Below, one piece after another: positions 152 to 42,007 of a DNA stretch of 64,000 nt. The position numbers and the translations under genes are program-made. Source of the DNA: a virus; the UHGV virus genome UHGV-0076294. One strand, 5' to 3'. The notes below the pieces were generated by a model that was not told where the DNA came from, did no database searches, and saw only the letters and a program-made list of their open reading frames with translations. Numbering within the stretch: position 1 is the stretch's first letter; each line of letters opens with the position of its first letter.

Positions 152-742
152 ATGGCTGAACGTTGGTCTAAAGAAGGTATCATTGAATCCAAAACCGATT
201 TGGAAGGTGGGTACGTAAACGACCCTGACGACAAAGGTGGAGAAACCTGTCACGGTGTAACTTTAGCTACTGCACGCGAATACGGCTACACAGGGAAAAT
301 GAAAGACCTCACCCGTGCACAAGCGTTTGATATTTACGATCGCGGTTGGTGGAAGAAGCTCAAACTCGATGAGATTTTCGCTATCTCACCGTTACTCGCA
401 GACCGGATGTTTGATTTTGGTATTAACGCAGGGCGTGCTAACTGTGTGAAATCGTTACAACGTATTCTCAACGTTTTAAATAACGAAGGGAAACTTTACG
501 CAGATATTGACACCGACGGCGGTATGGGTCCTAAGACACTGGGTGCGTTGAACGCGTACCTGAAATATCGTAAAGATGAAGGATTGAGCATTTTAATCTT
601 TGCGTTAATCTCGCACCAAGTAACTTACTACACGGAAATCTCCGAAAAACGTAAGAGAAACGAGAAATACACCTACGGATGGTACGGCCGCGTCTTCAGA
701 GAAATGGCAGATTATACGGTAAAAGCGGGGTTAGTAAAATGA
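152..742 (+). CDS. Endolysin: GH108-type lysozyme domain plus PG_binding_3-like C-domain
   Basis: EGGYVNDPDDKGGETCHGVT motif typical of glycoside hydrolase family 108. C-half DTDGGMGPKTLGAL peptidoglycan-binding pattern. GAGGAG RBS. Confidence 0.85.
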   Translation: MAERWSKEGIIESKTDLEGGYVNDPDDKGGETCHGVTLATAREYGYTGKMKDLTRAQAFDIYDRGWWKKLKLDEIFAISPLLADRMFDFGINAGRANCVKSLQRILNVLNNEGKLYADIDTDGGMGPKTLGALNAYLKYRKDEGLSILIFALISHQVTYYTEISEKRKRNEKYTYGWYGRVFREMADYTVKAGLVK

Positions 743-4616: not shown

Positions 4617-5164
4617 TCATCATCTCCTTTAACTAAACCCAGTTCAATTAACAATTCAAAATCGATTTGGCGAAATTTGTTATCAAAACCAGAATCCCAA
4701 TCGATATGTAACCCTTGTCGTTCTTCATCGGTAAGTTCAGGATAAATTAAACCAAGGAACGCTTCACGTTCTTCGTAAAATCCATCGATAGTAGAATCTG
4801 GATTTCGTGTTGCATAGATCGTAATGCCCGGAAAGGATAATCCTAATGCTGTTATAGATTCGACGCTCGGTTCTTGCAAGGCCCTGCGTAAAAGCACGAT
4901 TTTATGTCGTGGAAATTCTAGTACACGTTGTTCAAATCCAGGATTCCGTTTCTCAATTTCTGTAACTGAAAGATCGGTGAGTTCTGTGCAATACATTGGG
5001 ATAACTACGGTTACTCCGTGACGAATTAATAGTCGTTTAACATCGTCAGTGAAGTCTTCACCGTTAATTTGCACATAACAACCAAACAGTTTTGTGCTCT
5101 CTAAAAACTTTTCCAAAAAACGGAATTTACGCTTCGTAATATTGTGGATCAGAATTGGTTTCAT
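4592..5164 (-). CDS. Hypothetical protein
   Basis: 190-aa ORF overlapping both neighbours (translational coupling). No recognisable motif. Confidence 0.6.
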   Translation of the reverse strand: MKPILIHNITKRKFRFLEKFLESTKLFGCYVQINGEDFTDDVKRLLIRHGVTVVIPMYCTELTDLSVTEIEKRNPGFEQRVLEFPRHKIVLLRRALQEPSVESITALGLSFPGITIYATRNPDSTIDGFYEEREAFLGLIYPELTDEERQGLHIDWDSGFDNKFRQIDFELLIELGLVKGDDECLLLTKA

Positions 5165-6449
5165 CTTTGGCTTCTCTCAATTGTTTTTCTTTCTGGGCAC
5201 GTTCACGTACGCAACGAGGGCAATAACACATGCTATTATCGTGAAAATCTTTCACTGACGTCGTGCCCATTTTCTGTTTCCAATATTCCGCAACCATCAA
5301 TTTTGCAGTTGTCCAGCCGCATTGACGGCGTTCGGCGTGATAAGCTTTGCGATCTTCTAGCGTCCCTTCTCCATTCTCGTAAGATGCAGCCGCACAACTA
5401 CCACAAGCGTGCTTCATTGGACAACCTAAACAGGTTTCAGGATAGTTGGTATATTGCGTCTGAATCTCTTCCAGCAATTTCCCGTCATCTAAGCTAACGA
5501 ATTCCCGGCCAACTAATTCAAATACGGCAGAACGTGATGTTACGGTTGACATGAAACGGTTACAACCGAAGATCTTACGATCGAATCCTAAGCAGGTCAT
5601 GTGTGTTAACGTACCGCAGAACGGACGTAAACGTTCTGGATTCAAACGTACAGTATCGTTATACAATAATTGGTCGCGCCAGTTTGGTTCCCAGATAGTA
5701 TCAAAATCTAACCCGTCTGGAATGATGTGCGACAAGGTGTTACGTGGGTTGGTGTGTAAGCCCTTCTCAACCCAATAATCAACCACATCCATCATCTGCA
5801 ATGCGATTGAAGTAGCCATGCTCCGTGGCATAATGTCTTCGAAGGTTACGTTGCCGGAAATAGTTCCACCGCCAGTAATATCAATTAATGATTTCATTCC
5901 AGCAGCATAGAACGGTAACGTTTCCAACGTAAAGGTCGCTTTTACACCAAGTTCTGCAATACCGACTTCTTTTAAGTAATTATAGCCCCGCACAGCGGCC
6001 TCGTAAGATCCTTCACGAGTTGTTGTAAAAATCCGGTACTTATCGTGCGATTCGGGCAATCCATCAATAGACACCCCAATAGAAAGCCTGTCTTTCCAAC
6101 GTTCAATAATTTCTCTATTCAAAGGTCTATCTAACAATGTTCCGTTAGTAGAAATGCTAAACATAAACGGCCGATTATGTTTTTCGCATAACTCTTCTGC
6201 GGTTTCAAATGCCGCCATTAATAACTTAGGCTGCATAAACGGCTCGCCGCCGATAATGTCGATAACGACCTCGATGTTTGTCAGGTCTTTATCCCTTTCG
6301 AAACAGGCATGTAAAAAATCAACGATATCTGCCGCTTTGTTATTCCGAGGATACTTACGTTCGTAACAATACTCACAGTCTAGGTTACACGATAAATTTG
6401 TAACGATCTGATAAGTCAGTTGTTTAGGATAACTATTTTCTTGACTCAT
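5127..6449 (-). CDS. Radical SAM enzyme with SPASM-like C-terminal auxiliary-cluster domain
   Basis: CNLDCEYC (CX3CX2C) at about residue 21, GGEPFM, C-terminal CLGCPMKHACGSC (CX2CX5CX2C) plus further Cys. 440 aa, similar in size to AnSME/SCIFF maturases. GAGGGG RBS. Confidence 0.85.
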   Translation of the reverse strand: MSQENSYPKQLTYQIVTNLSCNLDCEYCYERKYPRNNKAADIVDFLHACFERDKDLTNIEVVIDIIGGEPFMQPKLLMAAFETAEELCEKHNRPFMFSISTNGTLLDRPLNREIIERWKDRLSIGVSIDGLPESHDKYRIFTTTREGSYEAAVRGYNYLKEVGIAELGVKATFTLETLPFYAAGMKSLIDITGGGTISGNVTFEDIMPRSMATSIALQMMDVVDYWVEKGLHTNPRNTLSHIIPDGLDFDTIWEPNWRDQLLYNDTVRLNPERLRPFCGTLTHMTCLGFDRKIFGCNRFMSTVTSRSAVFELVGREFVSLDDGKLLEEIQTQYTNYPETCLGCPMKHACGSCAAASYENGEGTLEDRKAYHAERRQCGWTTAKLMVAEYWKQKMGTTSVKDFHDNSMCYCPRCVRERAQKEKQLREAKDETNSDPQYYEA

Positions 6450-27243: not shown

Positions 27244-27453
27244 TTAGTCTTTTTTGTAGACGATCGCGTTACCGTGCAGTTTGTTGTTACCGGAAATACC
27301 GATAACTTTAAACGCTTCACCGCCGATCTTTTCAGCTTCGACAGCCAGCTTAGCAGTAACGTCGTCTACGGTGTCACCGAAAGCGCTTACGTTACCGATT
27401 TTCTTGAACTCTTCAGGAATGTGTTCAGCAGAAGAGAATTCTTTAATAGCCAT
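27244..27453 (-). CDS. DUF1471 (YhcN/BhsA/McbA family) domain protein without signal peptide
   Basis: KIGNVSAFGDTVDDVTAKLAVEAEKIGGEAFKVIGISGNNKLHGNAIVYKK matches the enterobacterial DUF1471 pattern (..NNKL.GTA.IYK). No N-terminal leader. GGAGAG RBS. Confidence 0.75.
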   Translation of the reverse strand: MAIKEFSSAEHIPEEFKKIGNVSAFGDTVDDVTAKLAVEAEKIGGEAFKVIGISGNNKLHGNAIVYKKD

Positions 27454-32898: not shown

Positions 32899-32930
32899 GG
32901 TGGGGTGTAAACCCCACCTTTTATTTTTTG
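32899..32930 (+). terminator. Rho-independent terminator
   Basis: GGTGGGG/CCCCACC stem plus TTTTATTTTTT. Confidence 0.8.
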
Positions 32931-33023: not shown

Positions 33024-33485
33024 ATGAAAATCTTCACTTCCTTTTTAATCGGCCTTCTCGCAATCGGATTCAATACTGCACACGCTGCAATCAATAGTTG
33101 GGAACAACTACAGAACCCAGGTCAAGCTGTTTACGAAATCGAAGACACCACCGGAAACGGACTGTCTATCAACTGTGACACTGAAACCGCGAATCGCAAA
33201 TTTTACGGTCGCATGGTTTGGTATTACGGGGAACCTGTAGGTGCAACTAACGCTGAAGACAACACGCTGGATATTGTCGTAAATGGCAAAACTTACAACA
33301 TCCCTACCGTGGATGGTAGTGACAAAGCAGAACTCGCTTGGGTGGCTTTCGTTAATGCTATCGGCAATGCCAAAACTTTCAGTGTGAATATCAACGGAAA
33401 CGAAGCCGCTAACTTTACCGTAGAAGGCGAACGTCTGTCTGAAACTTTCTTCCAGAACTGTGGACACACCCGTCCTAACAAATAA
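33024..33485 (+). CDS. Exported protein (signal peptide)
   Basis: MKIFTSFLIGLLAIGFNTAHA/AI cleavable leader. GAGGAG RBS. Confidence 0.75.
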   Translation: MKIFTSFLIGLLAIGFNTAHAAINSWEQLQNPGQAVYEIEDTTGNGLSINCDTETANRKFYGRMVWYYGEPVGATNAEDNTLDIVVNGKTYNIPTVDGSDKAELAWVAFVNAIGNAKTFSVNINGNEAANFTVEGERLSETFFQNCGHTRPNK

Positions 33486-33512
33486 GTATTAATCTTTTTA
33501 GAGTGCGTGAAA

Positions 33513-33899
33513 ATGAATATCAGAACTATACTTTATACCATCATTATTTTCTGTGCAGTCGGTATTACTGCCACTTATGCTTTCGGTGATTCGGATGTCC
33601 GCTATTACGAACCGGCTCCTGACTCACCGATTATCAACCCGGATGAGTCGCCTACGTTAATGCGCAGTTTCGGTAAACTGCAAGTTTATCGTTTAGTGCG
33701 TGGTGAATCGTGTACCGGATTACTCATTGCTGACACCCGTGCACAAGTCTACCAACGTCTGACGGATATCGCCTGCGAACAACCAAAAGTCATGTCGGTC
33801 AGTATTCATCCGTTAGAGGTCGGTAACTATACTGCTGTGGACTTCTTCCATAATGCAGAACTGATTGGTCGTATTACTTTAAATCGTAGCGCTGAATAA
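33513..33899 (+). CDS. Exported or membrane-anchored small protein
   Basis: Hydrophobic N-terminus ILYTIIIFCAVGITATYA/FG. ATG 33513 preferred to GTG 33507. Confidence 0.65.
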   Translation: MNIRTILYTIIIFCAVGITATYAFGDSDVRYYEPAPDSPIINPDESPTLMRSFGKLQVYRLVRGESCTGLLIADTRAQVYQRLTDIACEQPKVMSVSIHPLEVGNYTAVDFFHNAELIGRITLNRSAE

Positions 33900-33917
33900 T
33901 TTAATGGAGAAATTACA

Positions 33918-34400
33918 ATGAAACGTTTACACACCCTGATGCTCTTCGTGGCTATTCTGTTCACGGGCTTTAACTTTAACGCAGAAGCGGCTAGTGTAAA
34001 ACAAGCACTTAGTTGTAACCCGGAAGCCTGGGCTGAACAACCCGGTGCGTGTCCTGATATCAATACGCTCTATACCGACGACGCTACTTATAAAGCCGCG
34101 ATCGATAAAGCGTTGAAACCGGTCGGACTGGACGGATTATTCGGTAAAGATGGTGTAATGAATGGTCCTGGCGGCGATGTTATTCCCGTGCAAATCAACG
34201 GCAAAATCTGGCTTGAAGCTACTGGTTGTAAAAGCAATGCTTGTGGTTGGGAATACATCACGACGCTTTATAACCCGCAGACCCATGTCGTGGTAGGTTA
34301 CTATTACAACGTCGACCCAGGTTACCTGGTTTGGTTTGGCGATATCGGCGTTAATGAATTCGCCTATCTGGTTAAGAAATACGTAGCTACGGTTAATTAA
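33918..34400 (+). CDS. Exported protein, Ivy-like (inhibitor of vertebrate lysozyme family) candidate
   Basis: Leader ...NFNAEA/AS. TYKAAIDK...VQINGKIWLEATGCKSNACGWEYITTLYN is colinear with E. coli Ivy TTKAAFNQ...VTLGDETYQVMSACKPHDCGSQRIAVMWS, but the loop His is absent. Confidence 0.4.
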   Translation: MKRLHTLMLFVAILFTGFNFNAEAASVKQALSCNPEAWAEQPGACPDINTLYTDDATYKAAIDKALKPVGLDGLFGKDGVMNGPGGDVIPVQINGKIWLEATGCKSNACGWEYITTLYNPQTHVVVGYYYNVDPGYLVWFGDIGVNEFAYLVKKYVATVN

Positions 34401-34415: not shown

Positions 34416-34826
34416 ATGAAAACGTTTATCAAAACTTTACTCGTTGCTGTAACTGTTCTGTTCTCTCTTAACGTAGCAGCAAAAACAGTAAAACTACCGG
34501 CGGGTATCAAATACGTCAACAGTACCGATGAATTCTACTGCACAGAAATCGACGGTCTGTATTGCCAGACAAAGAATTTGTTTGAATACAAAGGTAACAG
34601 ATATGTTTTCGTTGTTGAGCAAGGTGGTGCCTGGTGCTACGACAGCCCTATGTCGGTACTCAACCTGGAAACTTGGAAAGCACAGAAAATTGAATACAAA
34701 GACAACCAATTGTGTTCAGGCGAAAACAAACCGTTCTTCAAAATCAAAAATGGTGTCCCGACTGTAGGTATTATCGACACCTCTGGAGCACCAATCGTTG
34801 TAGCTCAGGACAAACTTAAAATCTAA
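34416..34826 (+). CDS. Exported protein
   Basis: Leader MKTFIKTLLVAVTVLFSLNVAA/KT. Cys pattern resembles the next gene. Confidence 0.75.
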   Translation: MKTFIKTLLVAVTVLFSLNVAAKTVKLPAGIKYVNSTDEFYCTEIDGLYCQTKNLFEYKGNRYVFVVEQGGAWCYDSPMSVLNLETWKAQKIEYKDNQLCSGENKPFFKIKNGVPTVGIIDTSGAPIVVAQDKLKI

Positions 34827-34836
34827 GGAGTAAACC

Positions 34837-35226
34837 ATGCGTCTTATCTGCGCTTTGTTGGCGTTTTTCTCAATCGGAGTTATGGCTTCTACACACATCG
34901 ACGATTTATTACTTACCCCGGCAACGAACACAGACTATCACTACAACCCACCGGGTTTTGAAGTCTGCGAAGGCGATGCAGGCGAATGCCAAGAAGTTGG
35001 CGCAGATGGACGCTATATACTCGTAAAAGCAGACGGAGGAACAACCTGCCCTGCGGGTTATTATTTCGTACTTGACTCTGTAGCAAAAGAGGTACTTCCT
35101 GTAACGACCAAAACGTGTGACCCCACAGTTGTACTAACGCTTGCGAAAAGCAAATCACGTGACCGTCACTTTATTGTCATCGAAGAACGCGGTGAGATGT
35201 TAGGTGCTATCGAATTAGATTACTGA
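34837..35226 (+). CDS. Exported protein
   Basis: Leader MRLICALLAFFSIGVMA/ST. C..(5-6)..C...RY(I/V)(L/F)V...GG..C pattern shared with 34416..34826. Confidence 0.75.
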   Translation: MRLICALLAFFSIGVMASTHIDDLLLTPATNTDYHYNPPGFEVCEGDAGECQEVGADGRYILVKADGGTTCPAGYYFVLDSVAKEVLPVTTKTCDPTVVLTLAKSKSRDRHFIVIEERGEMLGAIELDY

Positions 35227-35305: not shown

Positions 35306-35782
35306 ATGCGTTTATCTAATGTTTATCAAGCGGCCCAATTCCATCACGAGCTGACGGCTAAGCCTGAATATATTCGCCACAACTTAACGGTGGCTTGGAA
35401 ACTGCTATTGATTGCTGATGCTGCACGACACAACGACCAGGAAACTATTATCAAAACCGTGCGTACTTTACGCCCTATTGACCTGGAAACAATTTGGTCG
35501 TTTGACTTAACTCGAATTTATCATCGTCGCTTTAATGCGGCGGTGGATGCGATACGTCCTTATTTCCACTATTTGCAAGCAACATCAGACTGTGGTCCAT
35601 CCTTAGAGTGGGTCTTGGTACAAAGCGTATGGAGCGATTACATTTATCTCCTATCTTTAGAGACGGGTGAATGCATTATCGCTAACGAGGTATTCTCAAC
35701 CAACGCCGAAATGTATCGTTCCCACGCTACTATCCAGGGTGTCTCACAGCCTATCTTATCACTCACGCACTTAGGGCTGTGA
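35306..35782 (+). CDS. Hypothetical protein
   Basis: Start at ATG 35306 (AAAGGAG RBS). The track start 35249 would run through the terminator. Confidence 0.7.
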   Translation: MRLSNVYQAAQFHHELTAKPEYIRHNLTVAWKLLLIADAARHNDQETIIKTVRTLRPIDLETIWSFDLTRIYHRRFNAAVDAIRPYFHYLQATSDCGPSLEWVLVQSVWSDYIYLLSLETGECIIANEVFSTNAEMYRSHATIQGVSQPILSLTHLGL

Positions 35783-35790
35783 TTAGCCCG

Positions 35791-35819
35791 GCCCCGCTGT
35801 GTACGGGGCTTCTTTTTTG
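35791..35819 (+). terminator. Rho-independent terminator
   Basis: GCCCCG/CGGGGC stem plus TTCTTTTTT. Confidence 0.65.
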
Positions 35820-41235: not shown

Positions 41236-41320
41236 CACACAACAAAGGAGTACCAGCTGTCCGCGCCGTGATTTCGTTCTACGGAATACGGAAATGTATA
41301 AATCCAACTGGAGAACTAGT

Positions 41321-42007
41321 ATGTTTCGTATCTTCTTTCTTTTACTGGTAACACTTTTCGCGTTTAACGCATACGCATCCAAATCCGCACCCAGTGCCAA
41401 ACACCATCGTGAATTCGAAATGATTCAAGACCGTTTCGAACGGGTAAAACCGTTGATTGTGGAAATCTCTCGAAAGCAGGGTGTTGATCCTAATTTAATG
41501 ACCACGCTAATCTATCGAGAGTCACGGTTTAATCCGAAGGCGTATAATCGAACGTCTAAAGCGCACAGTCTGGTTCAGATGCTACCGAGCACAAAGCGCA
41601 ATTTGCTAAAACTCTACGGTGCCGAAATCGGACTTAGTCGCAATGCGGATTTGTACAATCCTCGTAATGCGGTGCTATTGGCTTCCGTCTACGTTAAACA
41701 TTTAGAAAAGGGGTTAACTAAACGACTCAAACGCAAGCCCACTATTGCAGAAATAGCATTGGCTTATCACTGGGGTGAAAGCGGTGCACACGCCAGGATT
41801 AAAAGCAAGTCTCGGGCAGCACAACGAGAAATGGCGAGCTTTATGAAAGATGCAACGTTCTACAGTGCGAAAATCAACAAGCCTGTAGCATCTCGTCAGC
41901 TTGCGTTTGCGAAGAAACCAGAACGCCAGATTCAGTTAGCAGAAGTTAACCGAATTTGGGATACGATAAACACCAGTTTTCCATTTAAACAAGGAGTCAC
42001 CCTTTGA
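41321..42007 (+). CDS. Exported lytic transglycosylase (SLT domain)
   Basis: YRESRFNPKAYNRTSKAHSLVQMLPST (E-S..F.P.A.....A.GL.Q pattern). Leader MFRIFFLLLVTLFAFNAYA/SK. Start at ATG 41321 (GGAGA RBS). Confidence 0.75.
   Translation: MFRIFFLLLVTLFAFNAYASKSAPSAKHHREFEMIQDRFERVKPLIVEISRKQGVDPNLMTTLIYRESRFNPKAYNRTSKAHSLVQMLPSTKRNLLKLYGAEIGLSRNADLYNPRNAVLLASVYVKHLEKGLTKRLKRKPTIAEIALAYHWGESGAHARIKSKSRAAQREMASFMKDATFYSAKINKPVASRQLAFAKKPERQIQLAEVNRIWDTINTSFPFKQGVTL

What the first reader, a model, noticed from the sequence alone, without database searches (positions are those of the whole stretch)
33918..34400. Phage-encoded Ivy-like periplasmic protein with an altered inhibitory loop
Seen: the mature protein aligns colinearly with E. 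coli Ivy as I recall it. TYKAAIDK vs TTKAAFNQ. IPVQINGKIWLEATGCKSNACGWEYITTLYN vs QTVTLGDETYQVMSACKPHDCGSQRIAVMWS. It keeps the disulfide-bracketed five-residue loop C-K-x-x-x-C-G but replaces P-H-D with S-N-A.

Established: the Ivy loop histidine plugs the lysozyme active site.

Inference: the protein may have a different target specificity. The target could be another muramidase or transglycosylase, possibly the phage's own GH108 or SLT enzymes or those of competitors. Or it may have a non-inhibitory role.
Basis: partly seen in the sequence, partly recalled or inferred. Interest (0 to 1): 0.5.

Follow-up and report, generated by a model that had tools for sequence, protein, structure and literature searches.

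The report
Jumbo-phage Ivy-fold periplasmic protein
A giant phage of enterobacteria carries an exported protein with the fold of the bacterial lysozyme inhibitor Ivy, whose key loop histidine is replaced by asparagine; the same gene is traded with genomic islands found in about 44% of complete E. coli genomes, and it probably blocks a cell-wall-cutting enzyme that has not been identified.

Summary
ORF 33918..34400 (+) encodes a 160-aa protein with a signal peptide. It is a divergent member of the Ivy superfamily.

Direct family hits are below threshold: Pfam 14 bits against a cut-off of 21, NCBIfam E 0.0034. Three other lines agree:
- A profile of the protein's own relatives hits E. coli Ivy at 47.9 bits.
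- 26 of 31 distant relatives match Pfam Ivy.

The disulfide-framed loop C104-K-S-N-A-C109 aligns with Ivy's C-K-P-H-D-C. The His-to-Asn change is not unique to this gene. In 21 alleles of this clade the tip residue is N, H, D or Q, while more distant relatives mostly keep His.

The window is a SPN3US/phiEaH2-like jumbo phage. The gene lies in a cassette of small exported proteins. A second, related phage has it in the same slot, but SPN3US does not.

An allele 97.5% identical lies in E. coli CP4-type islands, so the phage's own lysins are unlikely to be its specific target.

The most likely role is a periplasmic loop-insertion inhibitor of a muramidase or lytic transglycosylase. The target and any activity are untested. 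I rate it a new variant of a known kind, of moderate interest.

The parts
33918..34400 (+). Ivy-superfamily ORF, 160 aa (mature about 136 aa, calculated pI 4.6, 4 Cys)
33906..33909 (+). GGAG ribosome-binding site, 8 nt upstream of the ATG
   Evidence: Read directly from the sequence.
33918..33989 (+). Predicted Sec signal peptide (residues 1-24, cleavage after A-E-A)
   Evidence: Read by eye: MKR, then a hydrophobic core, then AEA|A, with no lipobox. The model has pLDDT below 50 for residues 1-22. Inference only; no signal-peptide predictor was available.
34014..34052 (+). Codons from C33 to C45: a second conserved cysteine pair that E. coli Ivy lacks, probably an extra disulfide
   Evidence: C33 and C45 are invariant in A1 and at least 90% conserved in A2. 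Mature E. coli Ivy has only 2 Cys. The disulfide itself is inferred.
34227..34244 (+). Loop C104-K-S-N-A-C109, the counterpart of Ivy's C-K-P-H-D-C inhibitory hairpin
   Evidence: Aligned to CKPHDC by BLASTP, hmmsearch and hhalign. C104, K105, C109, G110 and W111 are invariant; the tip residue 107 is N11/H8/D1/Q1 in 21 alleles.
34416..34826 (+). Exported 136-aa 4-Cys protein (phrog_8968), adjacent to the Ivy-like gene in the J2-type E. coli island (L002) and in 16 listed hits
   Evidence: PHROG hit at 2.4e-37. The pair is matched together in E. coli genomes. It is 33-36% identical to proteins of SPN3US-like and phiEaH2-like phages. The AlphaFold model is poor (pLDDT 53.5).
34837..35226 (+). 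Exported 129-aa paralog (phrog_5248); the same PHROG family is hit by the C-terminal domain fused to Ivy-like domains in Salmonella
   Evidence: P0089 E 5e-5, P0050 E 3e-4. hhalign gives only weak support.
33507..33899 (+). Exported 128-130-aa paralog (phrog_9424); a frameshifted remnant lies upstream of the Ivy-like gene in a second type of E. coli island
33024..33485 (+). Exported 153-aa homolog of E. coli K-12 YkfB/YfjT (CP4-6 and CP4-57 island proteins); first gene of the cassette
   Evidence: tblastn at 26-28% identity, E 6e-13 and 8e-12. The L008 counterparts carry the precomputed Pfam family PF27224 YfjT.
32899..32918 (+). Terminator-like hairpin with a T-run upstream of the cassette
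   Evidence: Consensus scan, 8-bp stem with 6 GC pairs. This is a pattern match only.
35790..35810 (+). Terminator-like hairpin with a T-run downstream of the cassette, after ORF 35306-35782
   Evidence: Consensus scan. This is a pattern match only.
152..742 (+).
   Evidence: Pfam E 2.6e-23 and 1.5e-16; phrog_315 endolysin.
41294..42007 (+).
   Evidence: Pfam SLT E 3.3e-14; phrog_4067 transglycosylase.

Best explanation
The gene encodes a Sec-exported periplasmic protein of the Ivy superfamily. It belongs to a divergent branch with four cysteines and a longer N-terminal region.

Shown:
- It has the Ivy fold.
- Its disulfide-clamped hairpin C104-K-S-N-A-C109 aligns with Ivy's C-K-P-H-D-C loop.
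- It sits in a tightly packed cassette of small exported proteins in a SPN3US/phiEaH2-like jumbo phage.
- The gene moves between such phages and CP4-type genomic islands of E. coli.

Inferred: like Ivy, it binds a peptidoglycan glycan-strand-cleaving enzyme (a muramidase or lytic transglycosylase) and pushes the hairpin into the catalytic cleft. Asn107, or His, Asp or Gln in other alleles, would contact the catalytic carboxylate(s).

Nearly the same allele serves both a phage and chromosomal islands, and no lysin gene is annotated within 12 kb of it in the one such island examined. The target is therefore most likely common to both settings: an enzyme arriving from outside (a wall-piercing enzyme on a superinfecting phage's virion, a secreted muramidase toxin, or host lysozyme) or a host lytic transglycosylase. 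It is less likely to be the phage's own lysins. On this reading the biological effect is envelope protection or superinfection exclusion, analogous to T4 Spackle but using an Ivy-type loop.
For: Fold:
- Foldseek against the PDB: the top 8 hits are all Ivy (4ps6, 1uuz, 1gpq, 1xs0), probability 1.0, target-normalised TM-score 0.57-0.70, then a jump to E about 1.

Sequence:
- Pairwise BLASTP, E 6e-5.
- 10 of 14 close homologs give weak Pfam Ivy hits.
- A profile of the clade recruits 59 relatives. Of 31 aligned, 26 match Pfam Ivy, the best at 7.6e-12.
- Those relatives are named 'Ivy family c-type lysozyme inhibitor' by NCBI.

Loop: the frame C-K...C-G-W is invariant and the tip is variable.

Selection for an intact gene:
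- It is intact in a second phage at 65% amino-acid identity.
- It is intact in two island types whose flanking phage-derived genes differ or are decayed.

Shared allele: 97.5% amino-acid and 94-98% nucleotide identity to E. coli J2 chromosomal DNA, with homology ending at the edges of the gene pair.

Mechanism precedent:
- Ivy-type inhibitors insert a loop into the active site, and T4 Spackle is a periplasmic phage inhibitor of a tail lysozyme (PMC7677548).
- Ivy proteins also inhibit lytic transglycosylases in vitro (PMC10139938, PMC10746161).
Against: - No binding or inhibition was tested, and no target was identified.
- The histidine that canonical Ivy uses is absent in this allele.
- Purified P. 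aeruginosa IvyP2 is reported not to inhibit lysozyme in vitro (PMC5526577), and E. coli Ivy is only a weak inhibitor of lytic transglycosylases (PMC10139938). Having the Ivy fold therefore does not guarantee potent inhibition.
- Direct Pfam and NCBIfam hits are below their curated cut-offs.
- Only one of five AlphaFold models was confident (78.5 against about 45).
- There is no hit in PADLOC defence models.
- Expression timing is unknown.
Confidence: 0.55

Rival explanations
1. It regulates the phage's own lysis. The protein would hold the phage's GH108 lysin (152..742) or SLT transglycosylase (41294..42007) in check in the periplasm, either to time lysis or to limit damage from its own virion enzyme at high multiplicity of infection.
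For: Both enzymes are encoded in the same window. Ivy proteins can inhibit lytic transglycosylases in vitro. In the one other phage found with an Ivy homolog, PHB10, the gene lies about 1 kb downstream of the endolysin gene.
Against: A 97.5%-identical allele sits in E. coli chromosomal islands, and no GH108 or SLT gene is annotated within 12 kb of it in the J2 island examined. SPN3US has the syntenic cassette but no Ivy-like gene, so the gene is not a core part of lysis in this phage group. The Ivy-like gene is about 7 kb from the SLT gene and about 33 kb from the GH108 gene, with no obvious operon link.
Confidence: 0.12
2. It controls host lytic transglycosylases, the housekeeping role proposed for Ivy. 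This would keep the sacculus intact during the long infection cycle of a jumbo phage, or under envelope stress in island-bearing cells.
For: Ivyp1 and Ivyp2 inhibit MltB, and Ivy partially inhibits MltA and MltB in vitro (PMC10139938, PMC10746161). The target would be present in both the phage and the island setting.
Against: E. coli Ivy is only a weak inhibitor of lytic transglycosylases and has no in vivo effect on their overexpression. A conserved host target does not readily explain the N/H/D/Q polymorphism at the loop tip or the above-average divergence of this gene between related phages (64.7% against 75-90% for neighbouring genes).
Confidence: 0.18
3. It has the Ivy fold but a non-inhibitory role, for example as a periplasmic chaperone or binding protein. 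Loss of the histidine would then mark loss of the inhibitor function.
For: His is replaced by Asn. Purified IvyP2 is reported inactive on lysozyme. E. coli K-12 Ivy is annotated as a 'periplasmic chaperone' as well as an inhibitor. The adjacent 4-Cys exported proteins have no known function.
Against: The disulfide frame of the hairpin (C-K...C-G-W) is invariant across 21 alleles, and the two cysteines are at least 90% conserved in the wider family. That is hard to explain if the loop had no function. His-bearing and Asn-bearing alleles coexist in one close clade. Asn, Asp and Gln can all hydrogen-bond to carboxylates.
Confidence: 0.15

Closest known systems
Ivy, inhibitor of vertebrate lysozyme (E. 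coli Ivy/YkfE; P. aeruginosa Ivyp1 PA3902; Pfam PF08816; PDB 1gpq, 1xs0, 1uuz, 4ps6)
   Different: - Only 14-21% identity, with curated models scoring below their cut-offs.
- The tip His is replaced by Asn.
- It has a second conserved cysteine pair and a longer N-terminal region.
- It is carried by a jumbo phage and by genomic islands rather than being a core chromosomal gene.
- Activity is untested.
NCBI-annotated 'Ivy family c-type lysozyme inhibitor' proteins of Salmonella CP4-like islands (P0050, 314 aa), Janthinobacterium and Chromobacteriaceae
   Same: These are the nearest recognisable relatives (24-35% identity). They share both cysteine pairs. The Salmonella copy sits in the same island slot, directly upstream of DUF932-antirestriction-RadC-CbeA-CbtA, and also has Asn at the tip (CEANNC).
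   Different: Most of them keep His (C-E-x-H-N-C). The Salmonella proteins carry an extra C-terminal domain, which in the phage may correspond to a separate neighbouring gene (weak support).
T4 Spackle (gp61.3)
   Same: It is a phage-encoded, signal-peptide-bearing periplasmic protein that inhibits a peptidoglycan hydrolase (the gp5 tail lysozyme) and causes superinfection exclusion (PMC7677548). It is the closest functional precedent for a phage-borne periplasmic anti-muramidase.
   Different: It is unrelated in fold: a helical bundle that acts by allosteric and partial cleft blockage rather than by inserting a loop. The role of the protein studied here is only inferred.
Hypothetical protein QBJ00744.1 of Escherichia phage PHB10 (MK524177.1)
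   Same: It is the only other Ivy homolog found in 50,697 phage records.
   Different: It is of the canonical Ivy type: 38% identical to E. coli Ivy, loop CKPHSC with His, 2 Cys. It lies between the endolysin and terminase genes of a 57-kb phage. tblastn with the window protein does not detect it.

Membership tests
Ivy superfamily (Pfam PF08816 / NCBIfam PRK09993) | Scores above the curated family model threshold | tested here: not met
   Pfam: 14 bits against a cut-off of 21, E 0.059. NCBIfam equivalog: 17.2 bits against a cut-off of 180. The equivalog cut-off defines E. coli-type orthologs, so failing it shows only that this is not an ortholog of ivy.
Ivy superfamily (Pfam PF08816 / NCBIfam PRK09993) | Homology to Ivy demonstrable by profile methods | tested here: met
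Ivy superfamily (Pfam PF08816 / NCBIfam PRK09993) | Ivy fold (central antiparallel sheet flanked by helices) | tested here: met
Ivy superfamily (Pfam PF08816 / NCBIfam PRK09993) | Export to the periplasm | tested here: inconclusive
   A signal-peptide-like N-terminus with an AEA|A site was read by eye. No predictor was run and there is no experiment.
Canonical Ivy inhibitors (CKPHDC type) | Disulfide-bracketed protruding loop at the conserved position | tested here: met
   C104 and C109 align with the Ivy cysteines and are invariant. The disulfide bond and the protrusion of the loop are inferred, because model coordinates could not be inspected.
Canonical Ivy inhibitors (CKPHDC type) | Histidine at the loop tip (C-K-P-H-D-C) | tested here: not met
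   The window protein has C-K-S-N-A-C. Alleles of the clade show N11/H8/D1/Q1.
Canonical Ivy inhibitors (CKPHDC type) | Inhibits c-type lysozyme and/or lytic transglycosylase | not testable with these tools
   This needs purified protein and enzyme assays.
Phage superinfection-exclusion periplasmic inhibitors (T4 Spackle-like, functional class) | Blocks the virion-associated peptidoglycan hydrolase of incoming phage and reduces plating | not testable with these tools
   Only an analogy from the literature. The fold is unrelated to Spackle.

The most novel reading that the evidence does not exclude
The Ivy-like gene, possibly together with the adjacent 4-Cys exported proteins, is a mobile periplasmic 'anti-muramidase' module. 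It would be shared between jumbo phages and the CP4-type islands found in about 44% of complete E. coli genomes. It would protect its carrier by neutralising the cell-wall-piercing enzymes of incoming phages or secreted muramidase toxins. On this reading, the N/H/D/Q polymorphism at the loop tip and the repeated allele swapping are the trace of an arms race with those enzymes.
Probability: 0.2. Interest if true: 0.75.

Novelty: new variant of a known kind. Interest (0 to 1): 0.45.

Why it matters
Ivy is a well-known fold whose natural role is still debated: defence against host lysozyme, or control of the cell's own lytic transglycosylases.

This work shows that a divergent branch is cargo of mobile elements. 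It occurs in a jumbo phage lineage and in CP4-type islands, where the sampled copies are labelled 'hypothetical protein'. Matches to the region occur in 2374 of 5426 complete E. coli genomes. That gives a function hypothesis for a very common E. coli gene of unknown function.

If the protein blocks incoming phage enzymes, it would be a second, structurally independent solution to the job done by T4 Spackle. It would also be a new item for phage-defence and superinfection-exclusion catalogues. The natural His/Asn/Asp/Gln series at the loop tip is a ready-made set of variants for testing how Ivy-type loops set target specificity.

Tried and rejected
- **Single-sequence and clade-profile searches against PDB sequences.** These found no Ivy. 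The best hit was a spurious beta-mannanase at E 0.011-0.015. Fold comparison was needed.
- **Phage matches for the region.** Megablast of the region and tblastn of the protein against 50,697 phage records found nothing. Foldseek against BFVD viral structures gave nothing at E <= 0.001.
- **Structure of the partner protein (34416..34826).** The AlphaFold model had pLDDT 53.5 and was too poor for a fold search. A profile of the 4-Cys paralogs against the PDB gave no hit. Pfam, NCBIfam and PADLOC gave nothing for the cassette proteins.
- **Homology between the C-terminal domain of the Salmonella fusions and the cassette paralogs.** PHROG hits at E 5e-5 and 3e-4 and a colinear cysteine pattern support it. 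hhalign gives only 5% probability. I keep it as suggestive, not established.
- **A possible phage promoter motif, TATATTAC, upstream of the cassette.** There is one copy in the window against 2.6 expected by chance. Dropped.
- **K-12 islands CP4-57 and CP4-6.** They contain YfjT/YkfB homologs of ORF 33024 but no Ivy-like gene.
- **Primary Ivy papers.** Abergel et al. 2007 and Clarke et al. 2010 are not held in the library. What I say about His60 comes from my own knowledge and from secondary citations.

Full report
**1. The observation**

ORF 33918..34400 (+) is real and encodes 160 aa. A GGAG ribosome-binding site lies 8 nt upstream. The N-terminus, MKRLHTLMLFVAILFTGFNFNAEA|AS, has the form of a Sec signal peptide with no lipobox. 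I read this by eye; no predictor was run.

The mature protein is about 136 aa, acidic (calculated pI 4.6), and has four cysteines. Mature E. coli Ivy has two.

I fetched the E. coli K-12 ivy gene and compared the proteins directly:
- BLASTP aligns residues 85-133 with Ivy 63-114 and places CKSNACG on CKPHDCG (21% identity, pairwise E 6e-5).
- hhalign and hmmsearch extend the colinear alignment back to TYKAAIDK/TTKAAFNQ.

The only correction is that four residues lie between the cysteines, not five.

**2. Is it an Ivy?**

Curated models do not call it:
- Pfam PF08816 gives 14 bits against a gathering score of 21 (E 0.059).
- NCBIfam PRK09993 gives 17 bits, E 0.0034.
- Sequence searches of the PDB miss Ivy altogether.

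Three independent lines settle the question.

(a) Transitive profile homology.
- A profile of 14 close homologs (A1), searched against 1.84 billion representative proteins, found 59 relatives.
- Of 31 that I aligned, 26 match Pfam Ivy, the best at 7.6e-12.
- NCBI names several of them 'Ivy family c-type lysozyme inhibitor'.
- A profile of that joint alignment hits E. coli Ivy at 47.9 bits over 82 positions, including the loop (E 5e-17 for a single comparison).

(b) Weak but repeated direct hits. Ten of the 14 close homologs hit Pfam Ivy in the same register.

(c) Fold.
- An AlphaFold2 model (pLDDT 78.5, pTM 0.74) has a helix-helix-five strands-helix layout.
- Foldseek against the PDB returns Ivy structures as all eight top hits (4ps6, 1uuz, 1gpq, 1xs0; probability 1.0; target-normalised TM-score 0.57-0.70). 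The next hit is at E about 1.

Caveats: only one of the five models was confident, and I could not inspect coordinates. The disulfides and the protrusion of the loop are therefore inferred from conservation and alignment.

**3. The loop in its family context**

The His-to-Asn difference is real relative to canonical Ivy, but it is not a fixed feature of this protein's lineage.
- Distant relatives mostly read C-E/Q/K-x-H-N-C-G, keeping His.
- Within the close clade of phage and enterobacterial island copies, 21 distinct full-length alleles have an invariant frame: C104, K105, C109, G110 and W111.
- The tip residue in those alleles is N (11), H (8), D (1) or Q (1).
- Entropy at the tip is 1.44 bits, against a mean of 0.60 for the mature protein. 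The strand leading into the loop (residues 96-103) is also more variable than average.
- The Salmonella relative P0050 also has Asn (CEANNC).

This pattern fits tuning of a binding interface. It is not a formal test of selection, because the alleles are a non-random sample of cluster representatives.

A second cysteine pair, C33/C45, is invariant in the close clade and at least 90% conserved in the wider set. E. coli Ivy lacks it, which defines a four-cysteine branch of the superfamily.

**4. What the window is, and where the gene sits**

The window carries:
- large virion structural proteins;
- a radical-SAM protein;
- a GH108 lysin with a PG_binding_3 domain;
- an SLT transglycosylase;
- RNase H, UvsX-like and SbcC-like genes.

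A virion protein is 77-83% identical to those of Erwinia phage phiEaH2 and Salmonella phage SPN3US. It is therefore a jumbo phage of that group, and 'phage-encoded' is right.

Its closest public records (96.6-96.9% identity over the region) are filed as about 222-kb plasmids of E. coli 98232 and Enterobacter ludwigii.

The gene lies in a tight, co-directional run of small exported proteins, with intergenic gaps of 10-21 nt:

| Coordinates | Protein |
|---|---|
| 33024-33485 | YkfB/YfjT homolog |
| 33507-33899 | phrog_9424 |
| 33918-34400 | Ivy-like |
| 34416-34826 | phrog_8968 |
| 34837-35226 | phrog_5248 |

- Terminator-like hairpins bracket the run at 32899 and 35790. These are pattern matches only.
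- The three PHROG proteins are distant four-cysteine paralogs.
- SPN3US is syntenic (gp081-gp087 and the SMC gene). In the slot of the Ivy-like gene it has another paralog, gp085, and it has no YfjT-like gene.
- A second, more distant phage has the Ivy-like gene in the same slot (loop CKANAC). This is a 64-kb metagenome contig, L008, whose neighbouring genes are 75-90% identical at the amino-acid level. The gene is therefore maintained in a sub-lineage and is not a one-off insertion.

**5. Exchange with E. coli islands**

The 2.3-kb query around the gene matches 2374 of 5426 complete E. coli genomes, almost always on the chromosome. Three island arrangements were examined.

*E. coli J2.* The pair of Ivy-like gene plus the 136-aa gene lies in a tRNA-Ser-linked CP4-type island. 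It sits between dynamin/RdcB/patatin genes and DUF932-antirestriction-RadC-DUF987-CbeA-CbtA.
- Identity to the window is 94-98% nucleotide and 97.5% amino acid across the Ivy-like gene.
- It is only 73-84% nucleotide and 75.7% amino acid across the partner.
- Homology stops at the edges of the pair.
- The Ivy-like proteins of the two related phages are only 64.7% identical, less than any neighbouring gene.

*The P0012 type* (CKAHAC). This protein is on record in at least 864 contigs.
- Homology to the phage covers a frameshifted remnant of the upstream phrog_9424 gene plus an intact Ivy-like gene. There is no partner.
- The Ivy-like gene is thus the common, intact element, while the flanking phage-type genes differ or decay.
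- The 65-residue N-terminal extension annotated on some E. coli copies is the 5' part of a resident 180-aa island gene, fused in frame at the junction. This suggests insertion of phage-type DNA into the island.

*Salmonella.* The relative sits in the same island slot.
- It carries a C-terminal domain that hits phrog_5248 (E 5e-5 and 3e-4), with the cysteines in register.
- hhalign support is weak.
- I treat a functional link between the Ivy-like domain and the four-cysteine domain as suggestive only.

**6. Mechanism**

From the literature:
- P. aeruginosa Ivy proteins inhibit MltB in vitro, and E. coli Ivy partially inhibits MltA and MltB (PMC10139938, PMC10746161).
- T4 Spackle is a periplasmic phage protein that blocks the gp5 tail lysozyme and excludes superinfecting phage.

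From my own knowledge (Abergel et al. 2007, which I could not read here): His60 of the CKPHDC loop hydrogen-bonds to the catalytic residues of hen lysozyme.

Inference: the phage protein binds a muramidase or lytic transglycosylase through the C104-C109 hairpin. Asn107 would be able to hydrogen-bond to a catalytic carboxylate.

A near-identical allele works in chromosomal islands, and no lysin gene is annotated within 12 kb of it in the J2 island examined. I therefore rank the possible targets in this order:
1. an enzyme common to both settings and arriving from outside (incoming phage or toxin enzymes, or host lysozyme);
2. host lytic transglycosylases;
3. a non-inhibitory role;
4. the phage's own GH108 or SLT enzymes.

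Cautions:
- Purified IvyP2 is reported inactive on lysozyme (PMC5526577).
- E. coli Ivy is a weak inhibitor of lytic transglycosylases.
- No defence-model hit exists.

**7. Novelty**

Ivy and its fold are known, and distant relatives of this branch are already labelled Ivy by NCBI. The following appear not to be described.
- This clade belongs to the Ivy superfamily. The public names I sampled for it are 'hypothetical protein', and a few are mislabelled as DNA polymerase III subunit.
- It resides in a jumbo phage.
- It has been exchanged recently with CP4-type islands.
- Its loop tip is polymorphic.

Phage-borne Ivy is very rare but not unique. tblastn with E. coli Ivy finds one phage among 50,697 records, Escherichia phage PHB10. 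That protein is of the canonical type (CKPHSC), lies about 1 kb downstream of the endolysin gene, and is annotated as hypothetical. phrog_13619 is essentially canonical Ivy. My literature searches found no paper on a phage-encoded Ivy.

Verdict: a new variant of a known kind, of moderate interest. The function claim is testable with simple assays.

Noticed in passing
whole window; NZ_CP173450.1 and NZ_CP134650.1: The window is a SPN3US/phiEaH2-like jumbo phage. Its nearest public records (96.6-96.9% identity over 2.3 kb) are deposited as about 222-kb 'plasmids' of a urinary E. coli isolate (annotated circular) and of an Enterobacter ludwigii isolate from a gull. This suggests a carrier or pseudolysogenic state, or phage DNA co-assembled with the host.
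   Followed up: partly
window 33024-33485 (+); L008 6598-7551: This is an exported homolog of the E. coli K-12 island proteins YkfB (CP4-6) and YfjT (CP4-57), 26-28% identical. The related phage contig L008 has two tandem copies and SPN3US has none. It is another gene family shared between these phages and CP4-type islands.
   Followed up: partly
window 33507-33899, 34416-34826, 34837-35226; SPN3US gp083-gp086 (L006 3099-4808): A family of small exported four-cysteine paralogs (phrog_9424, 8968, 5248, 17072) forms a conserved cassette in SPN3US-like phages. There is no Pfam, PDB, NCBIfam or PADLOC match, and AlphaFold gave a poor model (pLDDT 53.5).
   Followed up: partly
L007 8001-8945 (Salmonella enterica, P0050); P0051, P0089: These 282-316-aa proteins fuse an Ivy-like domain to a C-terminal four-cysteine domain that hits phrog_5248 (E 5e-5 to 3e-4). 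This may be a Rosetta-stone link to the phage's neighbouring gene, but hhalign support is weak.
   Followed up: partly
L002 11818-12495; L012 6098-6640: The 223-227-aa E. coli versions of the protein owe their 65-residue N-terminal extension to an in-frame fusion with the 5' end of a resident 180-aa exported island gene. In the plasmid record, PGAP flags the phage copy as a pseudogene 'missing N-terminus', probably because of this longer form.
   Followed up: partly
L012 6687-6979: A frameshifted remnant of the phage's phrog_9424 gene (81% amino-acid identity over the C-terminal half) lies directly upstream of the intact Ivy-like gene in a common type of E. coli island.
   Followed up: partly
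L011 3450-3863 (Escherichia phage PHB10, MK524177.1): This 137-aa canonical-type Ivy homolog (38% identical to E. coli Ivy, loop CKPHSC) lies between the endolysin and terminase genes and is annotated as hypothetical. It was the only hit in 50,697 phage records.
   Followed up: partly
window 27244-27453 (-): A small gene is annotated in the matching plasmid record as a DUF1471 domain protein, and as YdgH/BhsA-like in L008. This family is a host-type periplasmic stress protein, so this is another bacterial-type envelope gene in the phage.
   Followed up: no
window 5127-6449 (-): A radical-SAM protein (phrog_1802, Pfam PF04055) lies among the structural genes of the jumbo phage.
   Followed up: no
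P0012 cluster names: Some UniRef and NCBI entries for the E. coli Ivy-like protein are named 'DNA polymerase III subunit gamma/tau'. This looks like an annotation error.
   Followed up: no
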